Source: Rhynchobatus australiae (lineage: Eukaryota). From it: a stretch of DNA of 64,000 bases. The position numbers were made by a program. The DNA is taken from NCBI GenBank assembly GCA_034780895.1, contig JAUZTB010000087.1, forward strand, positions 26,340,062 through 26,404,061. Direction: 5' to 3'. Within the stretch, counting starts at the first letter, position 1. Each line of letters starts with the position of its first letter. This document shows, one piece after another, positions 6,001-12,000 of the stretch.

Positions 6001-9000
6001 NNNNNNNNNNNNNNNNNNNNGAATCGAACCAGTGTCGCTTGAGCTGTAATAGCATAATGCTAACCACTATGCTACCGTGCCGCCCCTAAATTATGGACGC
6101 CCCATACATACAAACGAACTCCCATAATATTATTAAATTCAAAAGTCTGACATACGCACATACATTCATTCCTACTCTCTCTACTTTTACTAATTATTCT
6201 TCTTATCAGTCTCATGTGCTTTAGATGCCATTCATTACAATTCTGCAGAGATCCGGTTACCATATTGAATGATTTTTGCGTATATGCCGACCTATGGACA
6301 AAATCGACATGGGCATCTGCAAAAAATGGAACCCATTCATTACCCAGAGATGGCCTATACTCAGCTTGCTGCAATATTGCCAAGAGAAATATTGATGAAA
6401 GAAATTTCAATAGTAATACTGTAAAATATTTTTGCTACACCTGTTGATAACAATTTCCTGAAGATGCTAGTGAAATGTAAAATTGCTTCATCCAGCACTT
6501 AAGCAGTGAACATAACTTGCTTCTGTGTGGTCCCCATAACAACACATGGCAGAATTATACAGAAGTAAAAAAAGGACATGCAGGAATTAGGGATTGAGAC
6601 TCAAGCCATTGGGGATTAAGAAGAGGTATTAAAGAAATTGTAAAAGGATTGACTGTCTTGAAAAGAGAATTTCAGAAGGCTGGATGCAACACCTTAAAAT
6701 TCAGCCTCCAATTATAAAGTGGAAGAATAAGGAATAAGCAATAATGCAGGATTAGAACAAGAGAAAGCTGGAATGAGAAAAACAAAACCCACGAGAATGA
6801 AGACAGCCGACAAAAGGGTCCGCAATGAGGGAGTCATCAAAAGATCAATTTGCTGGACTGTAGAGAAATAATGAAATTGGCAAGACTGGGACTAATGAGA
6901 CCACATAAATTAGTAAGGACAAAATCATGTTCTGCAGAGATATGAATGACAGAAGGGTGTCATTATGGAAAACAAAGGTTGCTAAGAGTTCCAGAAATGG
7001 AGCAACTGAGAATGTCACATAATAGACAATGATCTTCAATGCAAGTAACCTTCATAATAGATGTAGAATAGGACATTTGGCTCAGTTATGCGTCACTAAA
7101 TTCAACCTGATTAATCAGATAGTGTGACTGATAGTGGCAAAACCAAAGGCTGATAGGTGCCAGCAATAGCAAGGAAAGATAACATGGACATTTAAAAGAG
7201 GAAACAGTGAAAGCAGACTTCAAATGCACGAGTACAAAACCTGAAAATAAAATTAGATTGACAACATCAGTAAACATGGTTTGAGATTAAGAAATTAGAT
7301 TGAAGGTTGACTTGAGAGAATAAGTAATGGACCAATATAAAATCAGCTGAAGATGTTGAGAGTGAGATGAAAGAGCAGTAGAATTTGGGACGGAGTATAA
7401 AAAGTGCTCAAGAAAGAAGAATACACGGAAAACAGTGCAAATGGATGTCTTACTTTACCAAAACAGAGTTCCTAGTTTAACAAGGAGGATGGAGTTTAAC
7501 ATAGTGATGCAATAAATTAACAACAGCTAATTTGGCCCATACAGCATTTGATGCATTACAAACCGATATTCAATTTAACCAACCAAATATCTGAATTTTT
7601 CAATCAATTCTTGCCAANNNNNNNNNNNNNNNNNNNNNNNNNNNNNNNNNNNNNNNNNNNNNNNNNNNNNNNNNNNNNNNNNNNNNNNNNNNNNNNNNNN
7701 NNNNNNNNNNNNNNNNNAGGAAGTTGTGGGCATGTTATGTTGGCGCCGGAAGTGTGGCGACACTTGTGGGCTGCCCCCAGAACACTCTACACAAGAGATG
7801 CATTTCATTGTGTGTTTCGATATACATGTGACTAATAAAGATAACTTATCTCACTATAACACTGAGGTACGGTACCAGTGGGGACGGGTCTGTTGCTGTG
7901 TAACACCGAGGTACGGTACTGGTGGGGATGGGTCTGTCGCTGTATAACACCGGGGTATGGTACTGGTGGGGATGGGTCTGTCGCTGTACAACACCGGGGT
8001 ACGGTACTGGTGGGGACGGGTCTGTTGCTGTATAACACCGGGGTATGGTACCGGTGGGGACGGGTCCCTCACTGTATAACATCGGGGAACAGTGCTGATC
8101 AACAATGGGGCAAGTACTGGTGGGACAGGTCTGACATTGTCCAACACTGAGGACCTTCAGCTATTCCTGACCTGTCTTGTGGACCAATACAACATCTACA
8201 ATTCATTCCCAGGTGTTCCACTGTCCTGACTTCAGAAACCGTGCTAATTGCAGACGCAGTTTATATTCATGCTGCAGCAATCAGGAGCACGTCGCTGCTG
8301 GACGGTGGGTTTGAGTGCAGTATATAGGAGGCCTGAGGACAGAAGCAGCCCAGCTACACGACTGGTGTCTCACCTGACGTTGGGATCTGCGCCGTACTGC
8401 AGGAGGAGCTTTAAGCAGCGGACTGCACCTTCGGTGTCCTGCCCCGAGGCCAGGTGCACTGCCGCTGTCCCCTCTGGCAGGACCAGGTTGGGATCTGCAT
8501 GGTCTTTCAACCATTTCTCCAAGGATCTGAGGGATTAGAATCATCAACACCCAGTCAGTAATTGGTAATCGGTTTATTGTCACGTCCTGAGCTACAGTAA
8601 AGCTTTAGTTTGCATGCCATCCAGACAGCGGGATAGCACAAAGGAGAAAGAAAAAACATCAGAGACAGGCAGGCATCGTTGAAAGACTTTTGTTGCCTTG
8701 TTCCCACCTTGCCCGAGGTCAGGGGTGGGCTTCACCCACACTACCCAGGCAACAAACACTGATTGCATTTTGGAAGCACCTGTTGATGTGGCACAAGCGA
8801 TCACCAGACAAAATGCAGCACTGGAGTACGTGGAGATACTGGGACTATCAGCTTGGTTGAAGTGGCCCTGTAAAAGGGAAAAGCACGAGGTGGAGGTCAG
8901 AGGGAGAATTCCACAGGGTCGGATCAAGGCAGAGGGTCAGCCACCAAAGGCATCCGAACAGGAGGAGATGGAGATCCCAGAAGCTCACAGGGCTGCAGGG

Positions 9001-12000
9001 GTTTCCAGAGCAGGGGGGGCAACAACATGCAGGGTTTTAATGTTAAGGCACTGCCAATGTAGAGACAATGGTGGGGTTGAGGGAAACGTGCAGCTCGGGG
9101 TGCAGCCAATGTCTGCTAGGTACATCTTTAAAGCAGATGTACTGACAGGACAGGATTGAACCAGTGGGAGTGGACACCACAGACTGGGAGCTGGGTCAGG
9201 ACAGAGGAAACATGTGGGTCTGAGTGCTGTCCCAGGGAGGATAGGACTGTCATTGATCACATCAGCCAAACCGGACAGAGTCAGGACAAAGCACAGACAG
9301 TGATGAACAGCCGGTGGCAACACACAGACTGGGGTGTACGGATGCAAAAACACAGAAGGTGACTGAGACAAAATGGAACTACAAAATGCAACCAGCTGAC
9401 CGAAAGTAAGAATATGTCAGATGAGGGACAGTCCCTAATGGTGCAAATCAGACCAGCTAACGTATGCTTTCTACATGTGCAGATGTCCTGGAATCACAGA
9501 ACAGTTACTGCATGGAAGGAAGCCACTTAGCCTGTCAAGTCCACATGGACTCTACGTAAGACCTATCCAGCTATTCCCACTTCAGCACCATCTTGCCATA
9601 GCTCTGCAAATTACTTCCCTTCAGATTATCCAGATCCCTTCTGAATGCTACAATTAAATCCTTCTCCACCATGAACCCTGGCGGTGCATTCCAGATCATA
9701 ACCATTGACAATATAAAAAAAAATTTCCTTATGTCTCTTCTGGTTCTTCTGCCAACCATCTTCATTCTCTCTCCCCTGGTCTTGACCATTCTACCAATGG
9801 GAACAGTTTCTCTCTATCTACTCTGTCTATAACCTACATGATTTTAAATACCTCGATCAGATCCGCCCATAACCAATTCCTTTCCAACCCTGTCTCTCCA
9901 GTCTACAAATATAATTGAAGTCCAACATCCTGGAATCCTTCTGGTAAATCTTTTCTGCACTTTCTCTAAGGCCTTTACATCTTCCCCAAATGACCAGAAG
10001 AGAACACAAGACCCTAGTTGTGATCGACCCAGTGTCTTAGAAAAGTTCATCATAACTTCTTTGATCTTATACTCTATGCCATTATTTATAAAGAACAGGA
10101 TCCCACATACTCTCTTAGCCACTTTTTCCAATGTGCCCTGTCACATTCAATGAACTATGTTTAGAAACATGAGAATATAAAAAATAGGAATAAGCCATTT
10201 GGGCTTTCAAGCCATTCAGTATGATTTTAGCTAACTTGGAAAAGAACCTGCATTTGGGTCTCATGCGCACAACGTAACAGATTGTGGTTTGTTATAATTC
10301 TGCTACTGCTGCTGATGGACAACAGCTTTGAGCTCCAGATCTACTCTGAATATATCACATTGAGCATGATGGTGGTGGCACACAACACAAGGGAGGATGT
10401 GAAGATAGCTCTTTGCCTGCACAAGTATTGAGCAGCAATCACTTCCACCAATATTGTCTCGGATCAAGACATCTGCAAGGGGCAGATTGGTGAAGTTGAG
10501 GTTGTTTACTCCTCATTCTAGTTCTCTCATTGTGAACCACAGACACATTGGGCAGATGTGATTTTCAGCTGAGCCAGTGAAGCCACCAAAGAGCATTGAA
10601 GTACCCTACCTAGAATACATTCTGTAATGCTGTTACTCTCAGTGCCTCTTCCATATGCTGTCTGACATGGTAGAGTACAGATTCATTAACTGAAGAATAG
10701 TAGGTGGCAATGGTGCTTTGTCAATATCTGACTTACCATGATACAACATCAAATAACAGTTGAGGATCCCTGAGGCTATTCCGTCTCACTTGTATACTAC
10801 AGTGCCATCATCTAGAGTGGATGTGTCCTGGTGGGGCAGCACATACCCAAGGTTGTAATGGAGGAATCTGGGACATCCCCTAAATGGTATGATCCTTTGA
10901 GTAAGACTATCGTTAACATCTTCGAGCTTAAACACTAGGCCCCCATGAGGTGGACTTTGGAAGGTGGACCTGCCCAAGGACATCTGAATCTGGTCTATAG
11001 ATCTAAGCCAAGTTATCCTTCTGGTCNNNNNNNNNNAGCAATTGAATAGCATAGAAGACAATTTCAGCGGAAGTTAAGAACAATCCACAATGGTTCTGCA
11101 GTTACATAAAGGCCAAAGCAGGAAGGGACAATAGATTTTCTTCCCTTAAGGATGTCATCTATTTTAATAACTATCTATTAGTTTTGTGGTCAGAAATAAC
11201 AAGGTCAGATTTTGTTTTTAGAATTCTAGGTTATTTAGTCATTTAAATTTACTGAATTTAAATTCCCCATAAACCAGGACGATTTTTAAATTTACACCTC
11301 CAGATCGATCTCCAAGCCTCTGGTTTACTAGTCCAGCCACTCATCCATTGTGCCACCGTCTCCACTCCCAATANNNNNNNNNNNNNNNNNNNNNNNNNNN
11401 NNNNNNNNNNNNNNNNNNNNNNNNNNNNNNNNNNNNNNNNNNNNNNNNNNNNNNNNNNNNNNNNNNNNNNNNNCCCAATAAGTCATCGATACCCAGTTCT
11501 CCAGAAAGTTGCTCATTATAACCAAGGGCACTCTAGTAATATACAGAGAATGTTATTATAAGAATGTCACACAACTATGACCCACCTAAGGAAGTAGAAA
11601 TAGTTCTAAAAAGCATCAATTTATAAGACTTATTAACTTGATTTATGGTCAAACTTATTCTCTCCATCAACAACAATTTCCCCACTACATGAAAGCTACT
11701 AAAGTGAAAAAGAAACAAAACATGAAGAATGTCCAGCTCACTGCTTATAAAGGTCATATACTGAATTAATTGGATTTAAATCTTGCATAATATGAGAGCA
11801 GCACATTATGACAGTGGAATGAGAGAAAAGTTACTTAGCTAAAAATAGTTAGCTTTTGACTATCTCAAGGCCATAAGAATGAAGTCTAGGAATGGAACAG
11901 AATCATGTAGTCATCCTTTTCAACATATCTTGTGCATCAGATGCCTAACATCTTGACTCATGTTCCAACTTTCAATTGGACCCGCAAATCACAAAGCAAA

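What the first reader, a model, noticed from the sequence alone, without database searches (positions are those of the whole stretch)
7718..9490. Intact orphan ANKLE1-like ankyrin exon on a foreign GC-rich block inside the KCTD16 intron
Seen: a 153-nt, stop-free, phase-symmetric exon (8526-8374, minus) with a TACTGAC branch-point-like motif, AG acceptor and GTGAGA donor, encoding two ADPN ankyrin motifs. It sits in a ~1.8-kb block richer in GC/CpG than its flanks, which carries a 44-bp minisatellite and is bounded by a 100-N gap and a CR1. I found no neighbouring ANKLE1 exons (e.g. TPLHVAA.WG) in the window. Known: ANKLE1 (ankyrin-LEM-GIY-YIG nuclease) is not syntenic with KCTD16/YIPF5 in human. 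Inference: a genomic segment of ANKLE1, introns included, was recently duplicated or transduced here at the DNA level (raw material for exon shuffling); alternatively the contig is mis-scaffolded. The ORF track misses this reading frame.
Basis: partly seen in the sequence, partly recalled or inferred. Interest (0 to 1): 0.75.

Follow-up and report, generated by a model that had tools for sequence, protein, structure and literature searches.

The report
ANKLE1 exon 2 on an island contig
The stretch is a genuine, intact second coding exon of the nuclease gene ANKLE1 from a sawfish-like ray, but it lies on a small contig cut off by assembly gaps, so its apparent home inside the KCTD16 intron is more likely a scaffolding error than a real gene-fragment duplication.

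Summary
Window 8374-8526 (-) is a 153-nt exon with no stop codons, an AG acceptor and a GTGAGA donor. It encodes one ankyrin repeat. It matches residues 20-71 of Pristis pectinata ANKLE1 isoform X1 at 51 of 52 positions, and homology stops exactly at both splice signals. So it is genomic ANKLE1 DNA, not a retrocopy and not a generic ankyrin match.

No other ANKLE1 exon is in the window. KCTD16 exon 1 lies at 20263-21093 (-) and matches P. pectinata KCTD16b at 276 of 277 positions. ANKLE1 and KCTD16 sit on sequences of different length in 6 of 6 elasmobranch species compared.

What is not shown is that the exon really lies in the KCTD16 intron. The window has 24 N runs in 64 kb. The exon sits on a 3.66-kb island (7718-11373) between two 100-N gaps, with no sequence continuity to either neighbour. 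Its one amino-acid difference from P. pectinata is what the true orthologous exon of a close relative would show.

Best reading: the ordinary ANKLE1 exon-2 contig was misplaced (about 0.6). The rival is a very recent DNA-level duplicate (about 0.3). The tools here cannot separate the two. Interest is low.

The parts
8374..8526 (-). ANKLE1 second coding exon (153 nt, phase 2 at both ends). It encodes the tail of one ankyrin repeat plus one full repeat.
   Evidence: It matches P. pectinata ANKLE1 X1 residues 20-71 at 51/52. It keeps all 25 columns that are invariant across 10 elasmobranch ANKLE1 proteins.
8527..8560 (-). 3' splice region: TACTGAC (8560-8554), a moderately pyrimidine-rich tract, and AG (8528-8527).
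   Evidence: Read. Protein homology starts exactly after the AG.
8368..8373 (-). 5' splice site GTGAGA after exon-final CAG.
   Evidence: Read. Homology ends exactly here, and the in-frame read-through does not match the next ANKLE1 residues.
7855..8087 (.). 44-bp minisatellite, 5.3 copies, in the intron downstream of the exon.
7718..9490 (.). GC-richer block (GC 0.519, CpG o/e 0.41). It is unique within the window apart from its own minisatellite.
9486..10140 (-). 5'-truncated retroelement (LINE-like) fragment on the same strand as the exon and upstream of it. It holds a reverse-transcriptase C-terminal ORF at 9847-10140.
   Evidence: Pfam found nothing. The family name CR1 is by recall only.
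7718..11373 (.). The island that carries the exon: contig 7718-11026, a 10-N gap, then contig 11037-11373. It is bounded by 100-N gaps at 7618-7717 and 11374-11473.
   Evidence: It has no end overlap and no shared sequence with the neighbouring contigs.
20263..21093 (-). Context: KCTD16 (KCTD16b) first coding exon, with a phase-1 donor C|GTGAGT.
   Evidence: It matches P. pectinata KCTD16b at 276/277.

Best explanation
The exon is the ordinary, functional second coding exon of ANKLE1, with pieces of its flanking introns. ANKLE1 is an ankyrin-LEM-GIY-YIG endonuclease. The genome is a sawfish or a very close relative of Pristis pectinata. In its native gene the exon is spliced between a short first coding exon and the exon that begins SSEDLTPLHVAASWG, and it supplies the first ankyrin repeat.

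It looks like an orphan inside the KCTD16 intron because it lies on a 3.66-kb island contig. A fragmentary short-read scaffold placed that contig between two gaps of unknown length. The placement is most likely a scaffolding error, not a biological insertion.

Shown: the exon's identity, its intactness, its genomic (unspliced) nature, the lack of continuity with its neighbours, and the non-synteny of the two genes in relatives. Inferred: that the placement is wrong.
For: 1. Identity. The exon matches P. pectinata ANKLE1 X1 (XP_051893521.1) at 51/52, with only E28->D. Hemitrygon has D at the aligned position. All 25 columns invariant in 10 elasmobranch ANKLE1 proteins are kept. Both splice signals are intact.

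2. Divergence. The flanking KCTD16 exon also differs from P. pectinata by one residue, 276/277. Toward stingrays the ANKLE1 exon diverges about three times faster than KCTD16 exon 1: 88% identity against 96%. So one change in 52 is what the true ortholog in a close relative would show. Nothing suggests a decaying copy.

3. Assembly. There are 24 N runs in 64 kb: 11 of exactly 100 N, 6 of 10 N and 7 of other sizes. Pieces as short as 611 bp are joined by 100-N gaps. A 32-bp exact overlap across the gap at 12525-12624 points to de Bruijn-type contigs.

4. Isolation. The exon island shares no sequence or end overlap with either neighbour, and its right part is retroelement.

5. Location in relatives. 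ANKLE1 and KCTD16 lie on sequences of different length in P. pectinata (35,742,751 vs 120,465,868 bp) and in Amblyraja radiata, Rhinoraja longicauda, Heptranchias perlo, Cetorhinus maximus and Scyliorhinus torazame. That is 6 of 6 species listed in both searches.

6. Composition. The block's GC (0.519) does not fit the AT-rich intron around it (0.35-0.41). That is expected for DNA from another chromosomal region.
Against: No read, depth or second-copy evidence could be examined, so the misplacement is not demonstrated. All the sequence facts above fit a very recent real duplication equally well.

If the 100-N joins were made from long-range linkage data or by alignment to a good reference, a contig with 1.8 kb of unique sequence would not easily land on the wrong chromosome. 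I do not know how the joins were made.

I could not check whether the same assembly holds another ANKLE1 exon-2 copy at the true locus.
Confidence: 0.6

Rival explanations
1. A real, very recent DNA-level duplication. A few kb of the ANKLE1 locus (part of intron 1, exon 2 and part of intron 2) was copied from its own chromosome into KCTD16 intron 1, in the same orientation as KCTD16. It sits there as an unexpressed or rarely spliced orphan exon.
For: Homology ends at the splice sites, so the copy would be genomic and not processed. The block's GC and CpG are foreign to the flanks. The two genes are on different sequences in 6 of 6 relatives. The scaffold does place the contig here. Near-identical duplicates collapse in short-read assemblies and also end up as island contigs between gaps.
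Against: No junction is visible, because both sides are N runs. No target-site duplication or insertion signature can be read. There is no decay in the exon or its splice signals, and divergence is no greater than the flanking KCTD16 exon suggests for an ortholog. My rough prior, not a computation, is that misplaced small contigs in such assemblies are several times commoner than recent interchromosomal gene-fragment copies. If spliced after KCTD16 exon 1 (phase 1), the phase-2 exon would read H-P-W-R-N-G-stop (read), so there is no in-frame shuffling product.
Confidence: 0.3
2. LINE-mediated 3' transduction. The retroelement at 9486-10140 (-) read through into downstream ANKLE1 intron and exon sequence at its source locus and carried that sequence here on retrotransposition.
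For: The geometry fits. The element's 3' end (about 9486) lies directly upstream, on the same strand, of the GC-rich block that carries the exon.
Against: The same arrangement is expected if a LINE simply inserted into ANKLE1 intron 1. The far end, where a tail and target-site duplication would lie, is beyond the gap and cannot be read. By established knowledge (recall), CR1/L2-type LINEs recognise their own 3' end and transduce flanks far less often than L1. The element's family was not established by any tool (Pfam found nothing).
Confidence: 0.04
3. A chance open frame, or a generic ankyrin repeat from some other gene or transposon, not ANKLE1.
For: Against solved structures the peptide only hits designed and generic ankyrin-repeat proteins.
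Against: The 8 best of 44 hits are elasmobranch ANKLE1 at 76-88% over 100% of the query. Of the 44, 37 carry PF22945 and 36 of those also PF03020. The match to P. pectinata ANKLE1 is 51/52. The match boundaries coincide with the splice sites.
Confidence: 0.01

Closest known systems
ANKLE1 of Pristis pectinata, isoform X1 (XP_051893521.1; P0262), residues 20-71
   Same: 51 of 52 residues match, the homology has the same start and end, and the ankyrin motifs are the same. The 5' exon boundary directly before SLEKW is also where the Hemitrygon akajei and Narcine bancroftii models join different upstream exons.
   Different: There is one conservative change, E28->D. The rest of the gene is absent from the window: exon 1, the further ankyrin exons, the long middle exon, and the LEM and GIY-YIG parts. 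In P. pectinata the gene lies on a 35.7-Mb sequence, not the 120.5-Mb one that carries KCTD16b.
Gene-fragment segmental duplications (orphan exons as raw material for exon shuffling)
   Same: An intron-flanked single exon of a gene from another chromosome lies inside another gene's intron, in the same orientation.
   Different: A second copy in the same genome is the defining feature and was not shown. The phases do not allow an in-frame fusion with KCTD16 exon 1.
Misplaced small contigs in short-read scaffolds
   Same: A 3.66-kb island lies between unknown-length gaps. It is repeat-bearing at its right side. Its composition and gene content belong to another chromosome in all relatives.
   Different: No read-level evidence of the error was available, so this is inferred by parsimony.

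Membership tests
[quoted passage not shown] | N-terminal ankyrin repeats whose best matches are ANKLE1 orthologs | tested here: met
   Pfam Ank E 1.1e-5. The 8 best hits are elasmobranch ANKLE1. Match to P. pectinata ANKLE1 X1 is 51/52.
[quoted passage not shown] | LEM domain and C-terminal GIY-YIG nuclease domain in the same gene | tested here: not met
   tblastn of six full-length elasmobranch ANKLE1 proteins finds nothing outside 8373-8534. The next best E values are 0.24 or worse. The window holds one exon only, a fragment and not a gene. Domain architecture is taken from the abstracts listed.
Processed retrocopy / retropseudogene | Adjacent exons joined without introns | tested here: not met
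   Homology starts at the AG and stops at the GT. Residues of exons 1 and 3 are not encoded next to it.
Segmental duplication (paralogous copy) | Two copies in one genome, with readable junctions to the new flanks | not testable with these tools
   No eukaryotic nucleotide collection is on hand. Both flanks of the island are N runs.
LINE 3' transduction | LINE 3' end directly upstream on the same strand, with a tail and target-site duplication at the distal end | tested here: inconclusive
   The first part is met. The distal end lies beyond the gap at 7618-7717.
Exonised cassette exon of KCTD16 | Same strand as the host gene, working splice sites, and a compatible phase | tested here: not met
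   Strand and splice sites fit. But the KCTD16 exon-1 donor is phase 1 and the exon needs phase 2, so the reading gives a stop after 6 codons. The short KCTD16 isoforms of 5 other elasmobranchs end in other residues (LPTTLCAPQ/L, or a longer tail), not this reading.

The most novel reading that the evidence does not exclude
The scaffold is right. A few kb of the ANKLE1 locus (intron-exon 2-intron, perhaps together with an upstream LINE) was copied very recently from a small chromosome into intron 1 of KCTD16, in the sense orientation. That would leave a pristine, splice-competent orphan ankyrin exon: a caught-in-the-act substrate for exon shuffling in a slowly evolving cartilaginous-fish genome.
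Probability: 0.3. Interest if true: 0.35.

Novelty: already known. Interest (0 to 1): 0.15.

Why it matters
If the placement is an artefact, the value is practical. It flags a misjoined contig in a fragmentary ray assembly. It also shows that 'orphan exons' on island contigs between unknown-length gaps should not be read as biology.

If the placement is real, it would be a modest but clean example of a recent interchromosomal gene-fragment duplication in an elasmobranch. The copy is frame-incompatible with its host gene, so there is no immediate functional consequence.

Tried and rejected
- Chance ORF or generic ankyrin: rejected.
- Retrocopy: rejected, because homology stops at the splice sites.
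- Further ANKLE1 exons in the window: none found. I ran tblastn with 5 orthologs and with the P. pectinata protein, a PAM30 search with its first 22 residues, and a 5-mer search with the isoform-X2 first exon.
- Other coding content in the GC-rich block: rejected. ORFs 8683-9156 (+), 8988-9416 (-) and 8595-8936 (-) have no Pfam family. The longest has no atlas neighbour above 0.78.
- Structured RNA: no Rfam match at E <= 1 in 6021-12524.
- Using contig ends to show that the island interrupts a continuous sequence: no result. Only one pair of contig ends overlaps, the adjacent pair at 12524/12625 (32 bp). Neither neighbour of the island shares any sequence with any other part of the window.
- KCTD16 cassette exon: rejected on phase.
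- Shared ancient LINE in ANKLE1 intron 1: the LINE-like N-terminus of the Narcine ANKLE1 model matches the window's LINE ORF at only 10 of 18 residues. That is too weak to argue orthology.
- Literature: 0 papers hold both 'ANKLE1' and 'elasmobranch'. The ANKLE1 papers were seen as listing and abstracts only.
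Full report
**What is there**

On the minus strand, 8526->8374 is a 153-nt open stretch. It is preceded by TACTGAC (8560-8554), a moderately pyrimidine-rich tract and AG (8528-8527), and followed by GTGAGA (8373-8368). The coding frame is one base, 50 codons and two bases, so both boundaries are phase 2. 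It gives SLEKWLKDHADPNLVLPEGTAAVHLASGQDTEGAVRCLKLLLQYGADPNV. The stop-to-stop ORF is only 54 aa.

Pfam calls an ankyrin repeat (E 1.1e-5, 25.9 bits, cut-off 21.1). Among solved structures only designed or generic ankyrin proteins match. The 44-bp minisatellite (7855-8087, 5.3 copies) and the 100-N gap (7618-7717) are as described. So is the GC/CpG contrast: the block has 0.519/0.41, against 0.366/0.36 on its left and 0.412/0.19 on its right. Only 8 of 191 tiles are as GC-rich, and all of them lie at the two CpG islands.

**What it is**

I searched with this single exon only. The search returned 44 proteins at E <= 0.001 among 72 candidates.
- The 8 best are ANKLE1 of sharks and rays: 88% for Mobula hypostoma and Hemitrygon akajei, and 76-82% for six others, all over the full query.
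- 37 of the 44 carry PF22945, and 36 of those also PF03020. I recall PF03020 as the LEM domain.
- The other 7 are generic ankyrin proteins or short unnamed records, which I did not fetch.

A second search, with a full-length stingray ANKLE1, brought in the P. pectinata gene. Its isoform X1 (XP_051893521.1) matches the window's exon at 51 of 52 positions (49 of 50 full codons). The only change is E28->D. Hemitrygon has D at the aligned position.

In an alignment with 10 elasmobranch ANKLE1 proteins, identity falls in the order Pristis 98%, stingrays 88%, skates 78-84%, sharks 76-82% and Narcine 74%. All 25 invariant columns are kept.

Homology begins exactly after the AG and ends exactly before the GT. 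The in-frame read-through on either side does not match ANKLE1. The Hemitrygon and Narcine gene models join different upstream exons at this same boundary. So this is unspliced genomic DNA of ANKLE1 coding exon 2, not a retrocopy.

**Surroundings**

- tblastn with six full-length ANKLE1 proteins finds no other ANKLE1 exon anywhere in the window. The next best E values are 0.24 or worse.
- A sensitive search with the first 22 residues finds only noise. The isoform-X2 first exon finds nothing.
- KCTD16 coding exon 1 is at 20263-21093 (-), with BTB_2 and H1_KCTD8_12_16 domains. It matches P. pectinata KCTD16b at 276 of 277 positions. At the one differing site the window has L, as do the five other elasmobranch KCTD16 proteins I fetched.
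- KCTD16 exon 2 is not in the window. In the scaffold, the ANKLE1 exon therefore lies in KCTD16 intron 1, on the same strand.
- The window comes from a sawfish or a very close relative, but not from the annotated P. pectinata sequence itself. I did not try to identify the assembly.
- The block is unique within the window, apart from a 65.7% match of 9486-9778 to 25787-26086.
- ORF 9847-10140 (-) looks like the C-terminal part of a retroelement reverse transcriptase (atlas 0.92; Pfam none). The label CR1 is recall.
- The long ORFs of the GC-rich block have no support as coding. No Rfam family matches 6021-12524.

**Is ANKLE1 foreign to this neighbourhood?**

The protein searches list the length of the sequence that carries each protein. 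I used that length as a fingerprint. All six species listed for both genes show different sequences.

| Species | ANKLE1 sequence (Mb) | KCTD16 sequence (Mb) |
|---|---|---|
| P. pectinata | 35.74 | 120.47 |
| Amblyraja radiata | 34.66 | 66.07 |
| Rhinoraja longicauda | 32.83 | 53.50 |
| Heptranchias perlo | 38.97 | 73.99 |
| Cetorhinus maximus | 122.11 | 144.56 |
| Scyliorhinus torazame | 170.48 | 323.49 |

**Is it really here?**

This is the point the sequence cannot settle.
- The window has 24 N runs: 11 of exactly 100 N, 6 of 10 N and 7 of other sizes.
- Pieces as small as 611 bp are joined by 100-N gaps.
- The two contigs around 12525-12624 overlap by an exact 32 bp. That suggests de Bruijn-graph contigs from short reads.
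- The exon sits on the island 7718-11026 + 11037-11373, between two 100-N gaps.
- Neither neighbouring contig shares sequence or an end overlap with the island or with any other contig. No junction between ANKLE1-derived and KCTD16-intron DNA can be read.

The exon shows no decay. Its one-residue difference from P. pectinata is matched by a one-residue difference in the far more conserved KCTD16 exon. Toward stingrays the two differ by 12% and 4%. The exon therefore looks exactly like the orthologous, functional exon of this species.

**Verdict**

Most likely (about 0.6) this is the ordinary ANKLE1 exon-2 contig, placed wrongly by the scaffolder. A real, very recent DNA-level duplication (about 0.3) explains the same facts and cannot be excluded. 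LINE 3' transduction is a geometrically possible but unsupported sub-case.

If the exon were real and spliced after KCTD16 exon 1 (donor C|GTGAGT, phase 1), the reading would stop after six codons. The short KCTD16 isoforms annotated in other elasmobranchs use a different tail. There is therefore no in-frame shuffling product.

**Left out or unchecked**

Each exon was searched on its own.
- No N run was filled.
- The same genome, its reads and the P. pectinata chromosomes could not be searched, because no eukaryotic nucleotide collection is available.
- Paper supplements were not consulted.
- ANKLE1 biology (ankyrin-LEM-GIY-YIG endonuclease that processes chromatin bridges) is taken from the listing and abstracts.
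- A search for 'ANKLE1' with 'elasmobranch' found 0 papers.

Noticed in passing
window 12493-12524 and 12625-12656: The contigs on the two sides of the 100-N gap 12525-12624 end and begin with the same 32 bases (100% identical). The 'gap' is probably an unmerged overlap. This suggests de Bruijn-type contigs. It was the only such overlap among all ordered pairs of the 25 contigs.
   Followed up: yes
window 20263-21093 (-): KCTD16 (KCTD16b) coding exon 1 matches P. pectinata at 276/277. At the one differing site the window has L where P. pectinata has I. The five other elasmobranch KCTD16 proteins fetched also have L. The window is therefore not the annotated P. pectinata sequence itself.
   Followed up: partly
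window 19879-20123: A G-rich minisatellite (units of about 31-33 bp, about 7 copies) lies directly downstream of the KCTD16 exon-1 donor. It keeps the exon's frame open for about 200 further codons as a His/Pro/Thr-rich pseudo-ORF. A similar G-rich 54-bp array lies at 60489-60759.
   Followed up: no
window 53556-53918 (-), CpG island about 59405-60100: An ORF containing [12 protein letters not shown] looks like an N-terminal YIPF5 exon, with a CpG island upstream. That would make the window syntenic with the human YIPF5-KCTD16 pair. The identification is by recall only, and Pfam found nothing.
   Followed up: partly
protein P0168 (Narcine bancroftii ANKLE1 model), residues 1-80: The N-terminus of this gene model looks retroelement-derived. 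It has 10 of 18 residues identical to the window's LINE ORF and is joined exactly at the exon-2 boundary. It is probably a mis-predicted first exon.
   Followed up: partly
protein P0167 (P. pectinata ANKLE1 isoform X2): The annotated isoform X2 starts from an alternative first exon and lacks all ankyrin repeats. That is why the first exon-only search did not list the Pristis gene: its cluster is represented by X2.
   Followed up: yes
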